64,000 nucleotides of DNA from Octopus vulgaris (taxonomy: Eukaryota). The notes beneath the pieces were generated by a model that was not told the DNA's origin, did not search any database, and saw only the letters and a program-made list of their open reading frames with translations. The position numbers and the translations under genes were made by a program. Below are positions 1,260 through 64,000 of the stretch, in pieces; position 1 is the first letter of the stretch, and each line of letters starts with the position of its first letter. The stretch spans positions 2,418,001 to 2,482,000 of the forward strand of contig OX597814.1 in assembly GCA_951406725.2 (NCBI GenBank), written 5' to 3'.

Positions 1260-1572
1260 TCTTTTCTTTTCTACTCTATGCACTAGGCCCGAAATTTTGG
1301 GGGAGGGGGTCAGTCGATCAGATCGACCCCAGTACGCAACTGGTACTTAATTTATCGATCCTGAAGGATGAAAGACAAAGTTGACCTCGGCGGAATTTGA
1401 ACACAGAGCGGAAAGGCAGACGAAATACCTATTTCTTTACTACCCTCAAGGGGCTAAACACAGAGAGGACAAACAAGGACAGACAAACGGATTAAATCGA
1501 TTATATCGACCCCAGTGCGTAACTGGTACTTAATTTATCGACCCCGAAATGATGAAAAGCAAAGTCGATCTC
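1260..1572 (-). mobile_element. SINE family B composite (body-tail1-body-tail2)
   Basis: Two copies of the body GTCGACTTTGCCTTTCATCC..GGGGTCGATAAATTAAGTACCAG, joined at ...AAAGAAATA|GGTATTTCGTC (junction 1429/1430). Homologous to the copies at 34.6, 38.2 and 59.4 kb. Confidence 0.85.
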
Positions 1573-7760: not shown

Positions 7761-7927
7761 TAGTATTATTGACATGACTTTATTGACTTTCATATCTACT
7801 GTACTATATAGTGGCCATGTCCATAAAAGAGGGACCAGAGCAGATGCTAAAAACTAAAGGCCTATATCTCTGGCCCAACATGTTAGCAGGGCAATGGAAC
7901 GCTAGAGATGGCAGCAACTCGATTTTG

Positions 7928-8508
7928 CAGAGTTGGAACCTACATACATTGGAAGCTATGCCAACATTATGGAATAACAACAGAAAAAAGATGGTATAGG
8001 CACACACCAGAAAAGGTCACAGAAAACGAGAAAGCAACCATACTCTGGGATATGCCGATACACACAGATAGAGAAATTAAGGCCAACAGACCAGATATAG
8101 TTGTCAGAGATCATGAAGAAAAAAAAAGCTTTCTAATTGATGTATCAATACCGGCTGATGACAACGTGTCTCTAAAAGAAATGGAGAAACTCTCAAAATA
8201 CAAAGACCTGGAAATAGAGGTAACTAGAATGTGGAATCTGAAAACAGAAACAATTCCTATCATAGTAGGTGCATTAGGCATGATAAAAAAATATTCAGAC
8301 AAATACATAACAAAAACACCAGGACTTACAAACACATATAACATACAGAAAATTGCACTACTAGGCACTGCACACATCCTACGCAGAACACTTTCCATAC
8401 AATAACCACCAGAGCATCACAACAAATCACAGCACATACCCAAGGCACACAGAGCTGTGCTCGGTAGTGAAGTGAAAGCACGCTATAAAAATAAAAATAA
8501 AACTACTG
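7928..8508 (+). mobile_element. 5'-truncated R4/Dong-clade non-LTR retrotransposon (restriction-like endonuclease + 3'UTR)
   Basis: ORF 7908-8405: ILWD..TD..NRPDIV..IDVSIP..EKLSKYKDL..IPIIVGALG (RLE PD..D-x-x-P..K-x-x-KY pattern). Its 3' end runs into (TAA)n, the known Dong target. Near-identical copy at 63.6-64 kb. Confidence 0.92.
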
Positions 8509-11321: not shown

Positions 11322-12382
11322 GTAGCTATAAAGATAGTTATATCGATAAATAGAAAACTGAAGATTGTCATATCACACTTTAAACACATACTCAACAAAA
11401 CAAAATAATTTGTTGTGTTTTTCTTTTTTGAAATATCTTTAAGAATCAGGAAACAAGAGAGAAAATAGGCTATGTTCTTTGGTTAGCTTATCATTGGTCC
11501 TGCCGATTACACCTGTTTGTTAATTGTACACACGGTAAGTAAACGTGTTAGCAAAACCTTACTGATTAAGATGAAAGCTCTTGATCAAACGATACTATCA
11601 CTGCTTTTCGTCGCCATTATTCTGTTTCACCACCTTAATTTTTCTCTCGTCACCATCAACATCAACACCAGCATCAGCATCAGCAGCAGCGGCAGCGATG
11701 CTCCGCCGCCGCCGTCGACGTCGGCGTTGTCGTCACCCTCATCATTACCACTGTCAGCATCTCCGCCACATCACAACCTCTTCCATCACCACACTTGACA
11801 ACAACAATACCAACGAAAATAAAGCAAAAAGAAACAAAACAGAAACAACACTAGCATCACCACCACCACCACCACCACCACCACCACCACCACTATCACC
11901 ACTTCCACTGCCGCCACTACCACCAACACCACCATGTACAACAACCATATACAAAAGCAACACCACCAACGGCACCATCACCACCACCACCGCTGTACCA
12001 AGAACATATCGAAGATACTGCACAAGAACAATTTCCCTGCTAGAAATAACAGCTAGCTCCCTTCATGGCCTCACTTCAAATAAAGGGGTAAAACACACAT
12101 TAAGGCGTGTAGTCGCAGAGACACTTAAACAGGCGTGGTAGTCAAGGAGAGGATTTCTTCCATCGGTATTTGCTCCTTAAAATATGAGTTGGATCTTACA
12201 ACACCAGACACAAAGAGAAAGAGCAAAGAAGTGAGGCTTTGCGCCTCTGTAGCGTTCCTCGTGTTACGAAAATCACAGCAGAAATGGTTCACGGGTTTAC
12301 GTCTATTAAAAATTATTGCTACTAACCCACCTGCCACCAGCTCTGGTCCTATGGCAATAACTTCTTCTTTTAAAGTGGTATT

Positions 12383-12775
12383 CTTTTACTCCTTTTCTTG
12401 TTTCAGTCATTTGACTGCGGTCATGCTGGAGCACCGCCTTTAGTCGAGCAAATCGACACCAGGACTTATTCTATCGGTCTCTTATGCCAAATCGCTAAGT
12501 TACGGTGATGTAAACACACCAGCATCGGTTGTCAAGCGATGTTGGGGGGACCAACACAAACACAGAAACACACACACACATATATATATATATACATACA
12601 TATACATATATACGACGGGCTTCTTTCAGTTTCCATCTAACAAATCCACTCACAAGGCTTTGGTCGGCCCCAGGCTATAGTAGAAGATACTAGCCCAATG
12701 TGCCACGCAGTGGGACTGAACTCGGAACCATGTGGTTGGTTGGCAAGCTACTTACCACACAGCCACTCTTGCGCC
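12383..12775 (-). mobile_element. tRNA-derived SINE family A (internal TA/CA microsatellite)
   Basis: A-box TGGCTGTGTGG, B-box-like GTTCAGTCCC, CORE-like TTGGGCAAGT segment, tail ..GACTGAAACAAG. Many copies in the window. Confidence 0.88.
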
Positions 12776-12842: not shown

Positions 12843-13101
12843 GCCTCCGTCAGTTACGACGATGAGTCTTGCAGCTGATCGGAACAAAGGAACAGCTTTC
12901 TCATGAAATTAGTGCGCAAGGGGCTGAACACTCTGCAGACACAGCGTTAACGTAGTTTTCGGGGAGATTTAGCTTGACACAAAATGAGACAATGCTGGTC
13001 CATTGAAATACAGGTACAATTCATCTTTACTAGCTGAGCGGACTGGAGCAACGTGAAGTAGAGTGTCTTGCTCAAGGACACCTAATCACTAAGCCACACG
13101 C
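12843..13101 (-). mobile_element. SINE family D, internally deleted
   Basis: Homologous to 21290-21617. Confidence 0.75.
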
Positions 13102-13627: not shown

Positions 13628-13829
13628 TGAAATAAGATTCAGACAAAAACGCTATAGTATGCAGTGTAAAGCTCGTCCAGAGTCATCGGCTACCTGATGT
13701 CGCGAGATATTTGAAATGCTCTTGCTACAGGATATACATAAGGAAATCCATAGTATTTTTAGAGTTTATGCATGGCAATAAATGGGTTCAATTTTCCAAA
13801 AAAAAAAACAATTCCATAATAGTTTCGAT

Positions 13830-14035
13830 ATTTGGCGCACGGCCAACAATTTTGGCGGAGGGGAAAGCCAGTTACGTCAAGCCCAGTACTCAAATGGTAC
13901 TCATTTTATTGACCCCGAAAAGATGAAAGAGTTAACTTCTGCGGAATCTGAACTCAGAACGTAAAGACGGACGAAATGTCGCTAAGCATTTTGTCCGGCG
14001 TACTACGTGCTAACAAGTCTGCCAACTCGCCGCTT
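13830..14035 (-). mobile_element. SINE family B monomer (tail2, diverged)
   Basis: Head GGCGGCGAGTTGGCAG..GAGTTCAGATTCC, followed by the family B body. Confidence 0.75.
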
Positions 14036-14399: not shown

Positions 14400-15560
14400 G
14401 CTAACATTATTAAAAGAGTATCTAACCTCTTCCTCTGAAGAAATTTTCGAGAAGGTTACCCCCTAATACAAGAATAACCTAGCCAATAGTGGCTTTAAGG
14501 ATAAATTTATCTATAACCCTTCTAATAATAAGGGAAATAATAAATGTAGACCTAAAAATAGATCTAGAAAAATAATTTGGTTGGTTCCCCCACCCACTAG
14601 TTATCCCTTAATCTAAAAACTGACATAAGTAAAAAGATTCATGTCTCTCCTAGACAAACATTTTCCAAAAAATTATAGGAACAGGAAAATATTTAACAGG
14701 CGCTCAGTGAAAGTATCACATAGCTGCTGCCCCAGAATGAAAAACATTATTAGAGGAGAACAACACCAAGAGCCCACTCCCAGTTGTAACTGTCGAGACC
14801 CAGGAATCTGCCCACTCGACCAGGGATGTATGATTAAATCCGTCATATATGAGGCAGGCGTTACGTCAACGCTAAAAGATAACACAACCGATAAGAAGGC
14901 ACAACCGATGGAGGCAACTTCAAAAATTGCTATGCTAACCATATAGCTTTCTTCCGAAACAGGGACAAAAGTAAAGCTAGTAAGTTGGCTAGCCACATAT
15001 GGGGTTTGAAGTCTAACGCCACATTACACATGACAAAGTGGAATATAATCGAAAACTTCACACCATATGTCAATGAATAAAAAAATGTGAGTTATGTGTA
15101 GCTCAAAGAACTCATTCCTTTTCAGATTTAAGAACTTCTGATTTATAGATCCGAAATTTTCAGCGGTTGTAAACATACGGTTAAGTTCCTGTTGGTGAAT
15201 TGCAAAGTACCACCCTCTCCGGGTTGAGCAATTGTACCGTAGACTCTATGTCACTATCTTTTTAGCCTTATATCTTACTGTCTAAGGGGGCATAACATTC
15301 ATTCATCTTTTTGTTTCCTTCTGTTTTCTTTTTCCTTTTCTGGTTTTCAACCTTTCACCATTTATATCTACATCTTTCTCGCTTTTTCTCGTTTTTTCTC
15401 CTCCTTTCTTCCTATTTTTAGATTGTTATTCCAAATGAACTTTGCCTGAAGAATGCACTAGGGTACCAGATGTGTTAAAAATACTGTTTGATATGCTATC
15501 ATCGCATGAAACTAATAGCAGTAATGAAAAACCTATATTGTGTCTATTAGATAACACACA
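14400..15560 (+). mobile_element. Neptune-type Penelope-like element remnant (thumb, Cys linker, GIY-YIG, pLTR)
   Basis: RSRKIIW..LDKHFP..KIFNRRSVKVSHSC..CNCRDPGICPLDQGC..VIYEA..LASHIWGLK..CELC, frameshifted. HHR-like motif at the 3' end. Confidence 0.88.
15442..15521 (+). ncRNA. Hammerhead with long stem-II insert, partly degenerate
   Basis: UUGC-CUGAAGA-AUGC...GCAU-GAAAC-UAAUA-GCAG; stem III is mismatched. A related fragment lies at 23430-23500. Confidence 0.6.
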
Positions 15561-19059: not shown

Positions 19060-19187
19060 GTGGCTGTGTGGTAAGTAGCTTACTTACCAACCACATGGTT
19101 CTGGGTTCAGTCCCACTGCGTGGCACATTGGGCAAGTGTCTTCTACTATAGCCTCAGGCCGACCAAAGCCCGTCGTATATATGTATG

Positions 19188-19218
<31 letters not shown>

Positions 19219-19440
19219 ATATGTTTATGTGTCTGTGTTTGTCCCCCAACATTACTTGACAACCGATGCTGGTGTGTTTACGTCCCCGTAACTTAGCGGT
19301 TTGGCAAAAGAGACCGATAGAATAAGTACTAGGCTTACAAAAAATAAGTCCTGGGGTCGATTTCTTCGAATAAGGCGGTGCTCCGGCATGGCCACAGTCA
19401 AATAACTCAAACAAGTAAAAGAATAAAAGAGTAAAAGAGT
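19060..19440 (+). mobile_element. SINE family A (small internal deletion)
   Basis: Homologous to 61741-62158. Confidence 0.88.
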
Positions 19441-21156: not shown

Positions 21157-21836
21157 CCGTATTTGATGGCCTATAAGACGCTAGGGGTGCATAGGACGCA
21201 CCCTAGCCTAAGCTATACTTTCGTAAAATAAATTACCACTGAAATAACGTTTTAATTCCTCCACTTACCTGTATAACTTTATGTTATTAAAAAAAAGACT
21301 CCGCCGGTTACGACGACGAGGGTCCCAGCTGATACGATCAACGGAACAGCTTGCTCGTGAAATTAACGTGCAAATGGCTGAGCATTCCACAGACACGTGT
21401 ACCCTTAACGTAGTTCTCGGGGATAATCAGCGTGACACAGAGAGTGACAAGGCTGACCCTTTGAAATACAAGTACAACTCATTTTTGCCAGCTGAGTGGA
21501 CTGGAGCAACGTGAAATAAAGTGTCTTGCTCAAGGACACAACGCGTCGCCGGGAATCGAACTCACAACCTTACGATCATGAGCCGAATGCCCTAACCACT
21601 AAGCCACGCGCCCTCACTTATGTTATTACTGGTAATTATAAGTAATTTATTGCATCCACATTCGATATAAACATACCGTGGGCAATTGTTCACCAACAGA
21701 TGGCAGCACACGCTTTGTAAACATACATACCGTACTGAACAAGTTTTGAGCCTACATTCAGTGCACTGGATGCAAGGGGGTGTTTTAAAGCAATTTTGGG
21801 GTAAAAAAAAGATGTCTTATAGGCCATCAAATACGG
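21157..21836. mobile_element. Tc1/mariner-superfamily (Tc2/pogo-like) MITE
   Basis: Perfect 23-bp TIRs CCGTATTTGATGGCCTATAAGAC (21157-21179 / 21814-21836). TA on the right, TG on the left. Confidence 0.88.
21290..21617 (-). mobile_element. Full-length tRNA-derived SINE family D nested in the MITE
   Basis: A-box TGGCTTAGTGG, B-box GAGTTCGATTCCC, CORE/V-like GTGTCCTTGAGCAAGACAC. 11-bp TSD TTATGTTATTA (21279-21289 / 21618-21628). Confidence 0.92.
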
Positions 21837-25552: not shown

Positions 25553-25802
25553 GCGGTACATATAGTTTCGGGCCTTTATTAGACAGATTTATAACAATGC
25601 ATAATGTATGTCTGTGGCCTTCTTCAGCCGCGCACAACAGCTTCCACAGGACATGTGTTACATCAAAAATTCTTGGTTGGGGATGCAAATCCTCTCATTT
25701 TGATGTAACACATGTCCTTGTGGAAGCTGTTGTGCGCGGCTGAAGAAGGCCACAGACATACATTATGCAATGTTATAAATCTGTCTAATAAAGGCCCGAA
25801 AC
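25553..25802. mobile_element. Near-perfect fold-back element with two hammerhead arms
   Basis: Arms 25565-25668 / 25698-25802 (~104 bp). Minus HHR 25553-25631: GCGG-CUGAAGA-A-GGCC...GGCC-C-GAAAC-UAUAU-GUA^CCGC. The plus arm is truncated after GAAAC. Confidence 0.88.
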
Positions 25803-25844
25803 ATTATATATATATATATATATATATATATAGGTGTAGTTACT

Positions 25845-30483: not shown

Positions 30484-30606
30484 TATATATATATATATAT
30501 ATTGGAGCAATCTCGAGTATAACCAGCCGAAATTGCAACGATAATCTGGAACTCATCTGAAGAAAGAAAACTTCGAATGACCCGTCCTAGAGTAGAAAAT
30601 TATTTA

Positions 30607-30810
30607 AGGCGGGGAGCTGGCAGAAACGTTAGCACGCCGGTCGAAATGCTTAGCGGTTTTTCGTCTGTCTTTATGTTCCGAGTTCAAATTCCGCCGAGGC
30701 CTACTTTGCCTTTCATCTTTTCGGGGTCAATATATTAAGTACCAAGTTGTGTGCTGGGATCTATCTAATCGGCTGGCCTCCTCCCCAAAATTTTGTGCCT
30801 AGAGTAGAAA
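30607..30810 (+). mobile_element. SINE family B monomer (tail2)
   Basis: GGCGGGGAGCTGGCAGAAACGTTAGC..GAGTTCAAATTCC..TGCCTAGAGTAGAAA. Confidence 0.85.
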
Positions 30811-31449: not shown

Positions 31450-31837
31450 TGTGGAGGCGCAATGGCCCAGTGGTTAAGGCAGCGGACTCGCGGTCGTAGG
31501 ATCGCGGATTCGATTTCCAGACCGGGCGTTGTGAGTGTTTATTGAGCGAAAACACCTAAAGCTCCACGAGGCTCTGGCAGGGGATGGTGGTGATCCCTGC
31601 TGTACTCTTTCACCACATCTTTCTCTCACTCTTACTTCCTGTTTCTGTTGTACCTGTATTTCAAAGGGCCGGCCTTGTCACTCTCTGTGTCACGCTGAAT
31701 ATCCCCGAGAACTACGTTAAGGGTACACGTGTCTGTGGAGTGCTCAGCCACTTACACGTTAATTTCACGAGCAGGCTGTTCCGTTGATTCGGATCAACCG
31801 GAACCCTCATCGTCGTAACCGACGGAGTGCTTCCATC
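31450..31837 (+). mobile_element. tRNA-derived SINE: family C head + family D 3' half
   Basis: A-box TGGCCCAGTGG; 12-bp TSD CATTTGGAATGC (31438-31449 / 31838-31849). Confidence 0.9.
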
Positions 31838-34142: not shown

Positions 34143-34611
34143 TTTTTAATATTTTATTCATCTTCCTGTTTTAGCAGTTGGTTGCGGTCCTGCTGGAGCA
34201 TCTCATTCAAGATATTTTGGTAGTTATATTGTCTCCATTACTCTGTTTTGATTTGATTTCATCGATCACGAATATCTGTCTTGACATAAAGGGATGTAGA
34301 TGGAAGATAGCTGAATACAGAATGATGTCTACTATCGACGCATCGATGTTAATCGACGTTTCCATCGTCATGTGCATAGCATTCACTCGCAGATGTATAT
34401 ATAGCCTCGGGGAGGAAGAGAGGCTGTCTGCAAACTAAGAGAACCTTGCTTCAAGTTCTCAAAGACCAGGTCTTGGTGTTAATAGGTGTGACTGGTTCCC
34501 TTGTGAAGATAACGGACGTAACTCAGAATATTATGGAAACATGGTTCATCCAGATATTTACTGGAATCAGAAGGAATACTTTACTGAGGAACCCAAAACA
34601 TATTTGGTATA

Positions 34612-35000
34612 ATTTTTTCTACTCTAGGCACAAAGACCGAAAATGTTGGGAAGGGGGCCAGTCGATTAGATCGACCCCAGTACGCATCTAGTACTTAATT
34701 TATCGACTCCGAAAGGATGAGAGGCAAAGTCAACCTCAGCGTAATTTGAGCTCAGAACATTAAGATAGACGAAATACCTATTTCTTTACTACCCACAAGG
34801 GGCTAAACACAGAGGGGACAAACAAGGACAGACATACGGATTAAGTCGATTACATCGACCCCAGTGCGTAACTGGTACGTAATTTAACGACCCTGAAAGG
34901 ATGAAAGGCAAAGTCGACCTCGGCGGAATTTGAATTTTAACGGCAGACTAAATACGGCTACGCATTTCGCCCGGCGTGCGAACGTTTCTGCCAGTTAGCC
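34612..35000 (-). mobile_element. SINE family B composite (head-body-tail1-body-tail2)
   Basis: Junction AAAGAAATA|GGTATTTCGTC at 34778/34779. ATATTTGGT is repeated on both flanks (probable TSD). Confidence 0.87.
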
Positions 35001-35369
35001 TCAGATATTTGGTGTATTAAGTGAAGCAAATTTGCTACGTATAGACATACGCACGTACACACACAACACACATACACACACACAAATGTACATTCAAACA
35101 TTCGCTATTTCGTTAAGTTTCATACAGTTTTCATATTAAAACACATTGGACGATAAAGACAGCAATGCATTAGGCCTGACAGTGCTACATTGGATAATGT
35201 ATTCCTTGATACACTACTCCGGAAACAAGCTGGAATGGTCTGGTTTTGACTATCTTTTATCATAGGCCTCGTTTATAAACGCCAACTTGGATGAAGCAAC
35301 AACAATTTTGAAGAAATATTTAAACTGAAATTGTGATTGCATTCATCATACAAATACGCTGTATGATTC

Positions 35370-36640: not shown

Positions 36641-37360
36641 CCATGGCTGTACTGTCTCAGGCCATAGACCCACCAGACTGGAGCTCAACAAAAAAAGAAG
36701 GACAGGTGTTTCACATACCAATGCCTCTGTCGTTCTCACAAAAGAACTTCTGCATGGTCCTTTGACGTGCTAAACAGAGCAATGAAATTTCACTCAAATC
36801 GTATTTTTCTCTCTTAAAAAGGAAAAACGAAAAGAGAAACAGAAAAGTAAGCTCGGGATTGCTAATGCAGTCGAAGACTATGTCATTGGATTGACAGGTC
36901 ACGGTTGGAAAGTCTTTCACGAAAATAGCTGCTAAATCAAGTTTATCACGGAGCTAAACAACAACAACAACAACAACAACATACACCCTCTTTCTCCCTC
37001 GTTACAGCTGAGATCTTTGCATTGGCTGCGGCGGCGGCTGACAAATGATTCCAGTTGCCATTAACCATTTTAAAGTTTTGTTCGGACAAAATGGTGAGAA
37101 ACATTATCCAGTGTTTCCTATCCGAAATCTCGACATCATCGTCTCACCATTTTGTAAACCGTTTCCGCATTCACCAAATTCCACCCCCGCCCTACTTCCT
37201 TTCATCTTTTACCCACCCACCTTCCCTCCGCCATCTTCTTTATCAATCTCCTTTAATCATTTTTGCATATTTCTGTTTTAAATATTTGTTTTGTATTTTT
37301 TTTGCGCTGTTATTTTATATTCTTTTCTTTTCTTTCGATTTATCGAAATCTCTCTCTCTT

Positions 37361-37765
37361 TTACTCTTTTACTTGTTTCAGTCATTTGACTGCGGCTATG
37401 CTGGAGCACCGCCTTTAATCGAGCAAATCGACCCCGGGACTTATTCTTTGTAAGCCCAGTACTTATTCTATCGGTCTCTTTTGCCGAACCGCTAAGTGAC
37501 GGGGACGTAAACACACCAGCAACGGTTGTCAAGCAATGCTAGGGGTACAAACACAAACACAAACATACACGCACCCAAACATATATATATATATACATAT
37601 ATACGACGGGCTTCTTTCAGTTTCCGTCTAACAAATCCACTCACAAGGCTTTGGTCGGCCTGAGGCTAAAGTGGAAGACACTTGCCCAAGGTGCCATGCA
37701 GTGGGACTGAACCCGGAATCATGTGGTTGGTAACCAAGCTTCTTACCACACAGCCACTCCTGCGC
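37361..37765 (-). mobile_element. SINE family A, full length
   Basis: Homologous to the other family A copies. Confidence 0.9.
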
Positions 37766-37844
37766 ATTCAAATATTCACATTTTCTATCTTTTGTCTTAC
37801 TTTTACCGTATTTTAGCCTTTTCTTGACTAACAACAAACAACTG

Positions 37845-38128
37845 GCGCTCCGTCGGTTACGACGGGGAATGTACCCGTCGCTCCGGTCAACTGAATAGCC
37901 TGCTTCTGAAATTAACGTGCAAGTGGCTGAACACTCCACAGACGCACGTACCCTGTATCGAATTCTCAAGGTGATTCCGCGTGACACAGAATGTGACAGG
38001 GCTGACCCATTGAATTACTGGTACAACTCATTTTTTGCCAGTCAAGTAGTAAAATGAAGTGTCTTGCTCAAGGACCCAACTGTCGTTGGAAGAGCCGAAT
38101 GCCCTAATCACTATGCTACGGGCCTTCA
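37845..38128 (-). mobile_element. SINE family D, diverged
   Basis: Homologous to 21290-21617. Confidence 0.75.
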
Positions 38129-38187
38129 CAGACTACCAGCAATAAAACCCAGCAACCTACACCAACACGATCACTAACAACAATACC

Positions 38188-38415
38188 TATTTCTTTATTA
38201 CCCACAAGGGACTAAACATAGAGGAGACAAACATGGACAGACATAGGTATTAAGTCGATTATATCGACCCCAGTGCTTAACTGGTACTTAATTTATCGAC
38301 CCCCAAAGAATGAAAGGCAAAGTCGACCTCGGCGGAATTTCAACTCACAACGTAACGGCAGCCGAAATACCGCTAAGCATTTCGCCCGACGTGCTAACGA
38401 TTCTGCTAGCTCGCC
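38188..38415 (-). mobile_element. SINE family B monomer with tail1
   Basis: 13-bp TSD TAACAACAATACC (38175-38187 / 38416-38428), which is GGTATTGTTGTTA on the element strand. Confidence 0.9.
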
Positions 38416-38801
38416 TAACAACAATACCACAACACCATTTCAGCATCACGTGCACGAAAAGTCCATCCTTGCCAATGCCGACTTAACCGATACTACTGTC
38501 ACTTTATTTCATGTTGCTCCAGTTCACTCGGCTGGCAAAAGTTGAGTTGTATCTGTATTTCAAAGGGGCCAGCTTTGTCACATTCTGTGTCACGCTGAAC
38601 CTTCCTGAGAACTAGGAACAGGGTACGCGTGTCTGTGGTGTGCTCAGCCCCACTGCCATCATCACCATCATCACCAAAACCATCTTCTCAATTGCTGCAA
38701 CAACGACATCACTCCCTCAGAAACCCACCATCAACGGACAACTAAAAGCAGAGACAATAATTAGAAGTTTGCATCAGAGAGAAGTTTTCAAACAAACTGA
38801 C

Positions 38802-39120
38802 ACTCCTTCGGTTACGACGACGAGGGTCCCAGCTGATAGGATCAATGGAACAGCCTACATAAGAAACCAAGATGCAAGTGGCGGAGTACTCCACAGACAC
38901 GCGTAACCTTAACGTAGTTCTCGGGGAGATTTAGCTTGACACAGTGTGTGACGGGACTAGAACTTTGGAATTCTGGTACAGCTCATTTTTTTCTATCTGA
39001 GTCGACTAGAGCAGCATGAAATAAAGTGTCTTGCCCAAAGATACAAAGTCTCACCGGGAATCGAACTCACAACCTTTCGATCGCGATCCGAATACCCTAA
39101 CCACTAAGCTACGCGCCTTC
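38802..39120 (-). mobile_element. SINE family D
   Basis: Homologous to 21290-21617, including the tRNA-like head. Confidence 0.82.
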
Positions 39121-51774: not shown

Positions 51775-51939
51775 ATTTATGTATATATATATATATGGTG
51801 ATGTGGTGATGATTCACTCCGCTGTTACTTTGGTTTTCTCACTTTGTACGATGCTCCGGGCGGCACATTTGTATATGTGTACGTGTGAGTGCCTGGGTGT
51901 GTGTGTGGGGGTTATGAGGCTGTATGTATCTATGTATTA

Positions 51940-52330
51940 TTCTTTTATTTGTTTCAATAATTTGACTGCGGCCATGGTGGAGCACGGCCTTTAGTCGAAC
52001 AGATCGACCCCCGGACTTATTCTTTGTAAGCCTTAGTACTCATTTCTATCGGTCTCTTTTGCCGAAACGCTAAGTTACGGGGACGTGAAAACACTAGCAT
52101 CAGTTGTCAAGCGATGGTGAGGGTACAAACATACACACACACAACATACACACACACACACACACATACACGACTGCCTTTCATTTTCCGTCTACCAAAT
52201 CCACTCTCAAGTTTTTGGTTGGTCTGTGGTTATAGTAGAAGACACTCGTCCAAGGTGCCACGCTGCGGGCCTGAAACCGGAACCATATGGTTGGTATGCA
52301 AGCTACTTACCATATAGCCACTCCTATGCA
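51940..52330 (-). mobile_element. SINE family A
   Basis: Homologous to the other family A copies. Confidence 0.85.
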
Positions 52331-52514
52331 TATATTTATGCGTATATATAAATATATATACATAATAATATAAATAATATATATACATACACATACACAC
52401 ATATATACATACATATGTTTGTATATAAATATGTGTACAAATAGATGTACGACTGCCACTTTCGAGTTTAGGGCTTCACGTAGGTTACCGTACACACACA
52501 CAGACACACACACA

Positions 52515-53239: not shown

Positions 53240-53277
<38 letters not shown>

Positions 53278-53282
53278 CTTTT

Positions 53283-53500
53283 TTACTCTTTTGCTTGTTT
53301 CAATCATTTGACTGTGGCCATGCTGGAACACCACCTTTAGTTGAGCAAATCGACCCCAGGACTCATTCTTTGTAAGCCTAGTACTTATTCTATCGGTCTC
53401 TTTTGCCAAACCGCTAAATTACGGTGACGTAAACACACCAGCATCGGTTGTCAAGCGATGTTGGGTGGACAAACACAGACACACAAACATACGCACACAC
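53283..53500 (-). mobile_element. SINE family A, 3' half
   Basis: Homologous to the other family A copies. Confidence 0.85.
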
Positions 53501-53647
53501 ACACACACACAAGCATACACACTCAGACGCACACACACTCAGACGCACACACACGAAAGCGCGCGCACACACACACACACATATACATAATTACCTATGC
53601 ATGTATCTAGCTAAACCTCTCTTTCTGTACCGACATATATGCCTATG

Positions 53648-57152: not shown

Positions 57153-57542
57153 TTTATATATATAAAGCTGGAGTTGCCTGTGTGTGGCAGGTTTGATAGC
57201 CTTCAACTAACACTATCTCCTCCAAGACCCTGCGGCGCAAGTTGACCAAAATTGAGAGTATGATAGAAGAAGGCTTGCTCTTCCTTCCGTAGAAGAAATT
57301 CAAATCGGACCATGTTTACACCAAAAATTATTTCCATCAAAAAGGTGCTTTTTTTTTCTATGAAAATCTCTATTTTTTTACTATTTTTTGACTGCTGTGT
57401 CGCCATTTTTCGGTGTATTTCAACCAGAAAAATGTTCACTTAAAGAGAATAACAAGCTACATAATGCAAAATTGTTACTTTTCAAAAATTCCAATTCTAA
57501 AGTGTCGAAACAAACCCGAGCAACGCCGAGCGATACTGCTAG
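57153..57542 (+). mobile_element. Non-autonomous Helitron
   Basis: 3' hairpin + CTAG|T; highly similar to 58772-59165. Confidence 0.85.
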
Positions 57543-57984
57543 TGTTTCTTTAAAACTACATGAATTCAAACCTCTCCAATCTACCTTGATTTAACTAGCG
57601 CTCATTTCTGCTTCACGATGATCTTAATCACATGATCTTTATCACATGACACTGGGCATTGAACGAAATACGGTGAAAATATTCAACAGTAACACTTCCT
57701 GACGTCTCTCTCTCCCTCCCTCTCTCTCTCTCACTCTCTCCAGGTCTTGCATGAAACTGTTTCAGATCTTGTTGGCAGATGTTAGCAGATGGTTGGGTGG
57801 CAGGTGATTATGACGTTTGAAATTCACTTGACACAAGACGACAGTTGTCGGCAAATATTCATGGGATTCTCCAGCAAATAACAATTCACTTTGCAATGCT
57901 TTAACCACTGACAGATGTTCACAGTCGTTTGCGTTCGGTAATGGTTACTTTCGTCTACGCTATGCCTCTCTCTATGCGTGTGTG

Positions 57985-58575: not shown

Positions 58576-59334
58576 CAGTGATACCTCGCAGTACGAGTTT
58601 AATTCGTTCCATGGCCGAGTTCGTCTTACGATTTACTCGTTTTAAAAACCAATTTTTTCCATTGAAATTAACTAAAATATAATTAATTCGTCCCAGCCCC
58701 CCAAAACCACTCAAAAATAAAGTTCTATGGGTTTTAAAACAGAACAGGTGTAGTTACAAATAAAATGACAATCTCTGTGTATATAAAGCTGAAGTTGTCT
58801 GTTTATGGCAGGTTTGGTAGCCTTCAACTAATTCTATCTCCTCCGAGACCCTTTGATGCAAGTTGACCAAAATTGAGAATATGATAGAAGAATGCTTGCT
58901 CTTCCTTCTGAGAAGAAAAAAATTCAAATCGGACCATGTTAACACCAGAAATTATTTCCATCAAAAAGGTGCTTTTTTTTCTATGAAAATCCCTATTTTT
59001 TACGATTTTTTGACTGCTGTGTCGCCATTTTTCGGTGTATTTCAACCAGAAAAATATTCACTTAAAGAGAATAACAAGCTACATAATGCAAAATTTTTAC
59101 TTTTCAAAAATTCCAATTCTAAAGTGTCGAAACAAATCCGAGCGACGCCGGGGTGATACTGCTAGTTATAGAAAAAGAGAATGCGAAAGAAATATGTAAA
59201 GTAGTTTTATTAACTGAATTACCTTAAAGATTTGTGTGCTAGTACTGCGGATTTCAGCTCGTATTTCCCGACAAAAATTCGCACGAGTTGTACAGCAAAT
59301 TACTCTGGTGCACTCGTACTGCGAGATTCTATTG
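58576..59334. mobile_element. Tigger/pogo-like MITE interrupted by a Helitron
   Basis: TA|CAGTGATACCTCGCAGTACGAG ... CTCGTACTGCGAGATTCTATTG|TA. Confidence 0.8.
58772..59165 (+). mobile_element. Non-autonomous Helitron
   Basis: A|TC...CCGAGCGACGCCGG...CTAG|T. Confidence 0.87.
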
Positions 59335-59349
59335 TATCTATTTCTGTGA

Positions 59350-59927
59350 TATTGGCATCAAATTTTGGCACAAGGCAAGCATGTTCAGGGGGTGGGGTAA
59401 GCCGACTACATCGCCCCCCGCTATTTCTCAACTGGTATTTATTTTATAGACCCCAAAATGATGAATGGTAAAGTCGACGTCTGTGGAATTTGAACCCAGA
59501 ACTTTAAGACGGACGAAATACCTATTTCTTTACTACCCACAGGGGAACTAAACACAGAGGGAGAGACAAACGGATTAAGTCGATTACATCGACCCCAGTG
59601 CGTAAATGGTACTTAATTTATCGACCCCAAAAGGATGAAAGGCAAATTCGACCTCGGCGGAATTTGAACTCAGAACGTAACGGCAGACGAAATACCTATT
59701 TCTTTACTACCCACGAGGGGCTAAACACACAGGGGACAAATAAGGACAGACAAACGAATCAAGTCGATTATATCGACCCCAGTGCGTAACTGGTACTTAT
59801 TTAATCGTCCCCGAAGAAATGAAAGGCAAAGATGACCTCGGCGGAATTTGAACTCAGAACGTAACGCTGACGAAATACCGCTAAACATTTCACCCGGCGT
59901 GCTAACATTTCTGTCAGCTCGTCGCCT
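59350..59927 (-). mobile_element. SINE family B trimer (head-[body-tail1]x2-body-tail2)
   Basis: Same junction sequence at 59522/59523 and 59696/59697; ~174-bp period. Confidence 0.88.
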
Positions 59928-60245
59928 TAAGTATAAAGTAAATATTAACATGTTAACACCGAGGCATGGCGCCCGAGTAACAAACTAACGGCAGTCATTG
60001 ATTATTGTAAATAATTTGGTGTTAAAGATCAGAATTTAATATGCTGCTATGACGATGGCGACAGTAGCAGCGCCATTACCAGGATTTCTTGCTACCCTCT
60101 GTACAAAGGAAAATTTGCAATAAATACCTCTAAAAGTAAGCGATTTTTGTAGAATCGGAATGTCTTGAAATATTGATGGAAATGAACTACTACTGTCAGA
60201 CACTAAACCTTTTTCTATTTTCTCTCCCTGTGTATTTCTGTGTTC

Positions 60246-61673: not shown

Positions 61674-61740
61674 AGAAGAAGAAAATAAGAAAGCCTCATA
61701 TTCAGTTACAAAATAGGCAAAGGAATATCTAAGTGAATTG

Positions 61741-61893
61741 AGTGGTAAGTAGCTTGCTTAACAACCACATGGTTCCGGGTTCAGTCCCATTGCATGGCAC
61801 CTTGGGCAAGAGTCTTCTACTATAGCCTCGAGCCGACCAAAGCCTTGTGAGTGGATTTGGTAGTGGGAAACTGAAAGAAGCCCGTCGTATATA

Positions 61894-61948
<55 letters not shown>

Positions 61949-62158
61949 ATATGTTTGTGTGTGTGTGTTTGTCCCCCCAACATCGCTTGACAATTGATGC
62001 TGGTGTGTTTACGTCCCCGTAACCTAGTGGGTCGGCAAAAGATACCGATAGAATAAGTACTAGGCTTACAAAGAATAAGTCCAGGGGTCGATTTGCTCGA
62101 CTAAAGGTGGTGCTCCAGCATGGCCGCAGTCAAATGACTGAAACAAGTAAAAGAGTAA
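61741..62158 (+). mobile_element. SINE family A
   Basis: Near-complete copy. Confidence 0.9.
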
Positions 62159-62239
62159 ATTCCAGAATTAGACATATTGGAAGCAAGCACAGAAAAGAAC
62201 CAGCTAAGCGTATGAAAACCCGTGTTAAAACTTCTACCT

Positions 62240-63453: not shown

Positions 63454-64000
63454 ACCAGAAATTACCAAAAACATGTAATGAAAAGAAATATAACAAGTAA
63501 CTGCAGAATATGTGGAGATGGACAAGAAACAATAAATCATATTATCTCTAGCTGCCCAGTCCTGGCTAAGAAGGAATATATTCTCAGACATGACAGAGTT
63601 GGAACCTACATACATTGGAAGCTATGCCAACATTATGGAATAACAACAGAAAAAAGATGGTATAGGCACACACCAGAAAAGGTCACAGAAAACGAGAAAG
63701 CAACCATACTCTGGGATATGCCGATACACACAGATAGAGAAATTAAGGCCAACAGACCAGATATAGTTGTCAGAGATCACGAAGAAAAAAAATGCTTTCT
63801 AATTGATGTATCAATACCGGCAGATGACAGCGTGTCTCTAAAAGAAATGGAGAAACTCTCAAAATACAAAGACCTGGAAATAGAGGTAACTCGAATGTGG
63901 AATCTGAAAGCAGAAACAATTCCTATCATAGTAGGTGCATTAGGTACTGTAGGTGCACTAGGTGCACTACTAGGCACTGCACACACACTGTCCATACAAT
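63454..64000 (+). mobile_element. R4/Dong element (CCHC knuckle + RLE), starting at an (AAT)n tract
   Basis: CRICGDGQETINHIISSC..RHDRVGTYIHW..NRPDIV..EKLSKY. Near-identical to 7928-8278. Confidence 0.92.

What the first reader, a model, noticed from the sequence alone, without database searches (positions are those of the whole stretch)
38175..38428. SINE with a sequence-specific GGTATT target that also lies in its own head
Seen: all five tail1 ends in the window (1430, 34779, 38188, 59523, 59697) read ...AAAGAAATA|GGTATT on the element strand. Four fall at the GGTATTTCGTC inside another family B head. This fifth is at an unrelated site with a 13-bp TSD beginning GGTATT, so GGTATT looks like target rather than tail. 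Inference: a site-specific endonuclease directs the SINE into its own family, with homology-guided 5' joining giving seamless multimers.
Basis: partly seen in the sequence, partly recalled or inferred. Interest (0 to 1): 0.72.

Follow-up and report, generated by a model that had tools for sequence, protein, structure and literature searches.

The report
Octopus SINE multimers carrying own primer
An abundant octopus-type short jumping element forms head-to-tail chains with a fixed GGTATT joint, and this single copy landed at a GGTATT site, likely because RNA from such chains ends in those letters and paired with the cut DNA, not because an enzyme cuts only there.

Summary
All 5 tail1 ends read AAAGAAATA|GGTATT, and the monomer 38188-38415 has a perfect 13-14 bp TSD starting GGTATT, so that hexamer was in the target.

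A strict site-specific endonuclease is not supported:
- The four multimer joints look inherited, not independent. Two dimers are colinear over 307 bp (87%).
- One dimer has its own 14-bp TSD that does not start GGTATT, and its first head lacks GGTATT.
- The other dimer has no target head upstream.
- In public runs, a second joint without GGTATT (tail into head at AGAATCG) appears in 4 of 4 runs.

Best reading (0.5): composite SINE masters place GGTATTT right behind tail1. TATTT is a moderate Pol III terminator in mammalian SINEs, so many transcripts would end in GGUAUU(U). That end would prime reverse transcription at nicks ending in its complement. This rests on one monomer, and no genome was available.

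A relaxed endonuclease preference (0.2) and template jumping at head hairpins (0.2) remain open. The partner LINE was not found. New variant of a known kind.

The parts
38188..38415 (-). tail1 SINE monomer: tRNA-like head with A- and B-box-like motifs and two hairpins, shared body, tail1 ending AAAGAAATA; 5' end about 3 nt short of the longest heads
38175..38187 (-). 3' copy of the target-site duplication, begins GGTATT on the element strand (38174-38187 if 14 bp)
38416..38428 (-). 5' copy of the target-site duplication
38366..38371 (-). GGTATT in the monomer's own head: first bases of the 3' arm of hairpin 2; the TATTT here resembles a moderate Pol III terminator; the TATTTC is the best complement in the unit to the tail's last 6 nt
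   Evidence: terminator from PMC8466645 passages, inferred for this animal
38399..38404 (-). loop of head hairpin 1 (AGAATC): site of the second, GGTATT-free tail-to-head joint seen in public runs
34612..35002 (-). dimer: full head + tail1 (34779-35002) joined at GGTATT to a truncated head + tail2; first head has the compensatory GCGTAGCC variant and no GGTATT
34598..34611 (-). 3' copy of the dimer's probable 14-bp TSD (12/14 with 35003-35016); does not begin GGTATT
35003..35016 (-). 5' copy of the dimer's probable TSD
1265..1572 (-). 5'-truncated dimer: tail1 unit 1430-1572 (no head) joined at GGTATT to a truncated head + tail2; unrelated DNA upstream; no TSD found
59355..59927 (-). trimer: full head + tail1 (59697-59927), truncated head + tail1 (59523-59696), truncated head + tail3 (to about 59355); both joints at GGTATT; no TSD found
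30583..30810 (+). tail2 monomer with full head (from about 30606), directly preceded by another tail2 end: a third joint type, tail2 into a full head
13825..14035 (-). diverged tail3 monomer; its head reads GACATT where tail1 heads read GGTATT

Best explanation
This is a tRNA-type SINE whose tail1 end is often followed by a truncated head starting GGTATTT, and the lone copy at 38188-38415 sits in a TSD starting GGTATT, likely because RNA read from such composite copies ends in GGUAUU(U) and would pair with the nicked DNA to prime reverse transcription. Shown: the joints, the monomer TSD, two colinear dimers, a probable dimer TSD that does not start GGTATT, and a second joint type without GGTATT. 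Inferred: (a) dimers and trimers are copied as units from composite masters (about 0.75); (b) Pol III stops part of the time at the TATTT just behind tail1, giving monomer-length RNA ending in GGUAUU(U), and otherwise reads on to give multimer RNA; (c) an unidentified LINE protein binds tail1 and primes best where the nicked strand ends in the complement, so such copies favour GGTATT sites. The target bias would then be written in the RNA end rather than in the endonuclease, and heads of the family would be favoured landing sites as a by-product.
For: Unit copying: colinear dimers; dimer TSD 12/14, null 22 of 20,000; no head upstream of 1572; the first head of the 34.6-35.0 kb dimer lacks GGTATT through a compensatory change. 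GGTATT travels with tail1: table 5c, 8 of the 12 rows shown enter at 38182/38183. Six of these 8 continue with T and five with TC, as in the head, whatever part of the element follows. Some have depths of 276-508 where the flank contig of that run has 47 (depth is a weak measure). The trimer's last unit has GGTATT before a tail3-type CCGTCT, whereas tail3-type heads read GGCATT (loose ends at 38355) or GACATT. The match to the target ends after GGTATT, where a TATTT-terminated RNA would end. TATTT terminated 42-50% of transcripts in mammalian tests, and many transcripts stop before a terminator's last T (measured for TCTTT and TTTT; PMC8466645, passages). RNA-primer pairing at 3' junctions is described for CR1, L2, RTE, I, R1Bm and R2Ol (PMC6007223 section 18).
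Against: Step (c) rests on one monomer. That monomer differs from the four multimer tail1 units (82-89% to them against 87-95% among them; GTAATAAAG against GTAGTAAAG), so it may come from a subfamily not shown to carry the GGTATT read-through. The same TATTT stands in the first head and would cut short a share of transcripts. Terminator strength was measured in human cells, not in a mollusc. RTE 3' microhomology in animals was only 1-2 bases. No TSD was found for the trimer or the 1.3-1.6 kb dimer. RNA ends were not observed (all laid runs were contigs). The trimer's single T could be a mutation, since that unit is only 74-80% like the others.
Confidence: 0.5

Rival explanations
1. One reading: the partner LINE's endonuclease prefers GGTATT, cuts it in family heads and elsewhere, and 5' joining by homology makes seamless multimers.
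For: 5 of 5 window ends are followed by GGTATT, and it is target-derived at the monomer. The monomer looks like a different subfamily yet uses the same hexamer. Three different downstream units follow the joint (tail1, tail2, tail3). Depth in 4 runs stays in the millions through 38182 and then drops more than 1000-fold. RLE-type LINEs are present in this window, and Dong-R4 and L1-Tx1 LINEs are recently active in Octopus vulgaris (PMC13282606 passages); that these clades include target-specific elements is recalled.
Against: A GGTATT-free joint appears in 4 of 4 runs (3, 3, 1 and 1 contigs; flagged 'between: not known'). P0003 and P0004 lack GGTATT at the tail end. A rough depth ratio puts GGTATT behind only 41-45% of tail-end depth. 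The consensus upstream of heads is TTAA plus AT-rich letters with no GG signal in 4 runs, though it pools all three tails. One dimer has no target head upstream and the other has a first head without GGTATT. The window's RLE LINE 3' end does not match tail1 (37 of 500 shuffles score as well).
Confidence: 0.2
2. Multimers form again and again at the RNA or cDNA level: reverse transcriptase copying one SINE RNA stops at a head hairpin, or the RNA is cut in the loop, and jumps to the 3' end of a tail1 RNA. The tail's GAAAUA can pair with the head's UAUUUC and so hold the two ends together. The same tail could pair with TATT in target DNA.
For: Both joints lie at loop edges of the two consensus hairpins. 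The GGTATT joint is 2 nt from the best complement in the unit to the tail's end; only 5 of 210 positions would be (post hoc). Three downstream unit types occur. No target remnant is needed.
Against: It does not explain the GG of the monomer's target, and only 4 nt pair there. The predicted joint hairpins are weak (-1.4 to -4.0 kcal/mol). Random jumping would scatter joints more than the 4 of 4 identical ones in the window. It may explain how the master first arose rather than each copy.
Confidence: 0.2
3. Multimers are inherited composites and the monomer's GGTATT target is a coincidence picked out afterwards.
Confidence: 0.1

Closest known systems
Octopus OR1/OR2 tRNA-derived CORE-SINEs (Ohshima and Okada 1994; seen only as cited in PMC4824008 and PMC4758252 passages)
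   Same: tRNA-like head shared by several tails, about 230 nt, very high copy number; translations of tail1 occur in two Octopus bimaculoides UniRef records (P0002, P0003).
   Different: Their consensus could not be obtained, so identity is a recalled lead. The passages read say nothing on multimers, fixed joints or target bias.
Complex and tandem SINEs: dimeric Alu; B2 and Dip multimers (PMC8466645, PMC10702118, PMC3531059 passages)
   Same: Head-to-tail dimers and trimers are common (about half of Dip copies); whether they form by insertion or are copied as units is left open there too.
   Different: Dip multimers are described as full-length units. Here downstream units lack their first 11 or about 47 nt and start at hairpin-loop edges, there is no poly(A) tail, and the joint itself would supply terminator and primer sequence.
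3'-end RNA-target pairing in TPRT: L1, CR1, L2, RTE, I factor, R1Bm, R2Ol (PMC6007223 section 18)
   Same: The TSD start matches the RNA's 3' end.
   Different: There the pairing sequence is poly(A), a tail microsatellite or, as I recall for R1Bm, flanking target RNA. Here it would be a 6-nt piece of the element's own head.
Target-specific non-LTR elements (R2, R4/Dong, Tx1 group; recalled)
   Same: Recurrent hexamer at the first nick, 13-14 bp TSD.
   Different: The target is not invariant here, and no partner LINE with this tail was found.

Membership tests
tRNA-derived SINE | short (<1 kb), interspersed, at least 100 copies | tested here: met
   about 230 nt; 10 units in the window; 92,947-206,539 contigs laid per run, depth in millions against about 50 or less in the flanks
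tRNA-derived SINE | target-site duplication | tested here: met
   14/14 at the monomer, 12/14 at one dimer; none at the 2 other multimers tested or at the 2 other monomers
tRNA-derived SINE | head at least 60% identical to a tRNA, with Pol III boxes | tested here: inconclusive
   A- and B-box-like motifs seen by eye (box consensus recalled); ARAGORN 0 genes; Rfam no tRNA match at E up to 10; no direct tRNA alignment made
tRNA-derived SINE | tail shared with a partner LINE | tested here: inconclusive
   only the window was searched; its RLE LINE 3' end does not match any of the three tails
Octopus OR1/OR2 CORE-SINEs | sequence identity to the published consensus | not testable with these tools
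   consensus not found; original paper not seen
Octopus OR1/OR2 CORE-SINEs | present in Octopus genomes | tested here: met
   P0002 and P0003 are O. bimaculoides UniRef records, 88% and 82% identical to tail1 translations
Octopus OR1/OR2 CORE-SINEs | CORE central domain | not tested
   no CORE consensus available from a tool
Complex (dimeric) SINE | dimer amplifies as one unit | tested here: met
   two colinear dimers, 307 bp at 87%; one with its own probable TSD; modest support, 2 copies
Target-specific non-LTR element or its SINE | nearly invariant target at independent 3' junctions | tested here: not met
   GGTATT-free joint in 4 of 4 runs; P0003 and P0004; rough depth share 41-45%. Fails for strict specificity; a relaxed preference was not tested
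Target-specific non-LTR element or its SINE | partner endonuclease that cuts the target | not testable with these tools
   partner LINE unknown; no genome held

The most novel reading that the evidence does not exclude
A self-perpetuating loop in which a SINE writes its own target code. A piece of its head, fixed behind its tail, serves both as Pol III terminator and as priming guide. New copies are steered to GGTATT sites, above all to the hairpin in the heads of their own very abundant relatives, which rebuilds the composite that makes the guide. Target preference would be inherited through RNA and would change with the joint type, without any change in the LINE enzyme.
Probability: 0.25. 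Interest if true: 0.65.

Novelty: new variant of a known kind. Interest (0 to 1): 0.42.

Why it matters
SINEs make up about 12% of the Octopus vulgaris genome (PMC13282606 passages), yet most recently active families there are unclassified. Whether SINE multimers arise by insertion or are copied as units is left open even for mouse B2 (PMC8466645 passages). Here fixed joints, subfamily markers and non-poly(A) tails make the question directly testable in any octopus assembly. If RNA-end priming is confirmed, it is a natural case where insertion bias is set by the passenger RNA rather than the endonuclease. It also means repeat libraries should model these elements as composites.

Tried and rejected
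Searches that found nothing usable:
- No genome is held, so the genome-wide logo could not be built.
- Tail or body patterns in genome contigs, viral contigs and metagenome contigs gave 2 hits in 5 scans. Both are chance matches in the same bacterial coding stretch, which looks like a membrane transporter gene by eye (L001, L002).
- Plasmids gave no match.
- Sampling junctions through spurious translations gave only 3 proteins. P0002 does not reach the junction. P0003's codons allow AGAAAT (an extra tail repeat) or a sequence two changes from GGTATT, and an exon border there cannot be excluded. P0004 is diverged.
- ARAGORN and Rfam gave nothing useful.
- The GGTATT-free joint does not occur in the window (0 matches).
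- Earlier scan findings: none bear on this.

Rejected readings:
- The window's RLE LINE as partner.
- GGTATT as an obligatory part of the tail (second joint type).

Weak points:
- It warned that not all joints were counted and showed only 15 of 332 joints, 12 of 598 insert rows and 24 of 1,554 loose ends, so no joint frequency is claimed.
- The 38365->38182 joint row has contigs in X1 and X2 only (6 and 4); none were counted in X3 and X4.

Literature:
- Ten searches found no description of these joints.
- Albertin 2015 was not held, the SINEBase supplement was unavailable, and Ohshima and Okada 1994 and Repbase/Dfam entries were not seen. Any of these may already describe the multimers.

Full report
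Observation. Five tail1 ends read AAAGAAATA then GGTATT, four continue GGTATTTCGTC, and no further tail1 end is in the window. The monomer 38188-38415 (minus strand) lies between two identical 13-bp words, 14 bp with the next G; 2 of 20,000 random pairs did as well. Since the hexamer is also in the upstream copy, it was in the target. Contigs of runs X1 and X2 carry the same 3' junction with 0 differences (table 8). In X4 the depth is 47.4 on both flanks, only one record runs over the ends, and no piece spans the stretch. I read this as one contig that skips the element, an empty allele; the joint row was not printed, so this is inference.

What it is. Ten units of one SINE group lie in the window. 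They share a tRNA-like head and body and end in one of three tails. The head folds into two hairpins in the consensus of 5 heads (1 of 22 pairs has a compensatory change, so support from covariation is thin). The family is very abundant: 92,947-206,539 contigs were laid per run. Translations of tail1 occur in two Octopus bimaculoides UniRef records. It is probably the OR1/OR2 group; that name is a recalled lead, supported only by citations in PMC4824008 and PMC4758252 (passages), and was not tested by sequence.

The four multimer joints are probably not four insertions. The dimers at 1267-1572 and 34615-34921 align end to end, 307 bp at 87%. The second has a probable 14-bp TSD of its own (34598-34611 and 35003-35016, 12 of 14; 22 of 20,000 null pairs), which does not start GGTATT. 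Its first head has a G-C pair where others have U-G, so it lacks GGTATT and cannot be the left half of a GGTATT target. The first dimer starts mid-body with unrelated DNA upstream. No TSD was found for that dimer or for the trimer. Insertion followed by replacement of the target's 5' half is still possible but needs extra steps.

GGTATT is neither obligatory tail nor invariant target. One search lists a joint 38404->38188, tail1 straight into the loop of hairpin 1 (AGAATCG), in 4 of 4 runs (3, 3, 1 and 1 contigs, flagged 'between: not known'). The GGTATT joint row has 6 and 4 contigs in X1 and X2 and none counted in X3 and X4; the tool did not count everything. P0004 shows the loop-1 joint, and P0003 a tail end that is not GGTATT. 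Bin arithmetic puts GGTATT behind 41-45% of tail-end depth in all four runs, a rough figure because contig depth decays at element ends. Upstream of heads the consensus is TTAA and AT-rich, with no GG signal, but it pools all tails. A third joint, tail2 into a full head, stands at 30583-30606. So chaining is general in this group.

GGTATT travels with tail1. Of the 12 rows shown in table 5c, 8 enter at 38182/38183. Six continue with T and five with TC, as the head does, before passing to other parts of the body. In the trimer, GGTATT precedes a tail3-type CCGTCT, while tail3-type heads read GGCATT or GACATT. That is one base in a diverged copy, so it is weak.

Mechanism. PMC8466645 (passages) reports TATTT as a moderate Pol III terminator, 42% in SINE constructs and 50% in vitro; for TCTTT and TTTT many transcripts stopped before the last T. 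In the composites TATTT follows tail1 after two bases, so a share of transcripts would end in GGUAUU(U) and the rest would read on as multimer RNA. PMC6007223 (abstract, passages, section 18) describes pairing of the RNA 3' end with the nicked strand for several LINE clades. An RNA ending so would prime best at a nick whose strand ends in the complement, giving a TSD that starts GGTATT, as here. This accounts for the monomer, for unit-copied dimers and for GGTATT-free ends. I give it 0.5. Against it: there is one monomer, and it looks like another subfamily than the multimer units (82-89% against 87-95%). The terminator data are mammalian, animal RTE microhomologies are 1-2 bases, and no RNA end was seen.

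Rivals. A relaxed endonuclease preference (0.2) fits 5 of 5 ends and the monomer's separate subfamily. RLE LINE fragments are in the window (7887-8505 and 63594-63944, 98% alike; weak match to R2 proteins, E 0.0095; no Pfam support). Their 3' end does not match tail1. Template jumping or RNA cleavage at the head hairpins (0.2) fits both joints lying at loop edges. It also fits the GGTATT joint lying 2 nt from the best complement of the tail end (5 of 210 positions, post hoc), and may be how the master first formed. Coincidence at the monomer gets 0.1.

Known and new. SINE multimers are known (Dip and B2, PMC8466645; PMC10702118 passages; complex SINEs in PMC3531059 passages), and so is 3' pairing in TPRT. 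Ten searches found no account of these octopus joints. PMC13282606 (passages and supplement passages), PMC12988792 and PMC13295347 (passages) and the PMC5804259 supplement (searched, 0 hits) say nothing on them in what I saw. Albertin 2015, the SINEBase supplement, Ohshima and Okada 1994 and repeat databases were not seen and may describe them. Verdict: real feature, first reading partly supported, new variant of a known kind, interest 0.42.

Noticed in passing
window 7887-8505 (+) and 63594-63944 (+): Two 98%-identical 3' fragments of an RLE-type non-LTR element (weak match to R2 proteins). The first runs into a 1.1-kb (TAA)n array, as recalled for Dong/R4; the second is preceded by a short TAA run and has a rearranged end.
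   Followed up: partly
window 37835-38080, 38500-38651, 38789-39120: The monomer sits between inverted copies of another repeat family (37925-38047 against 38526-38649, 80%), with further copies at 12845-13081, 21298-21615 and 31647-31830.
   Followed up: no
window 38416-38422, 30600-30606, 59927-59933: TTAA or TTA stands just upstream of full heads, and TTAA is the consensus in 4 runs: either part of the true 5' end or a second-nick preference.
   Followed up: partly
window 38100-38500: Run X4 probably holds an empty allele of this insertion (same depth 47.4 on both flanks); the joint row was not shown.
   Followed up: partly
window 12379-12768, 19060-19433, 37356-37767, 51923-52331, 53268-53504, 61739-62159: Another abundant bipartite repeat family, often interrupted by microsatellites.
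   Followed up: no
window 25557-25812: A near-perfect inverted repeat of about 250 bp (90% to its own reverse complement), with an AT microsatellite at one edge; MITE-like.
   Followed up: no
window 57165-57543 and 58786-59166: Direct repeat of about 380 bp at 87.5%, 1.6 kb apart.
   Followed up: no
window 14629-14946 (+): Short degenerate ORF that looks by eye like a Penelope-type GIY-YIG region; no Pfam match.
   Followed up: partly
window 13999-14005: 7-bp insertion in the tail3 monomer's head between the two hairpins.
   Followed up: no
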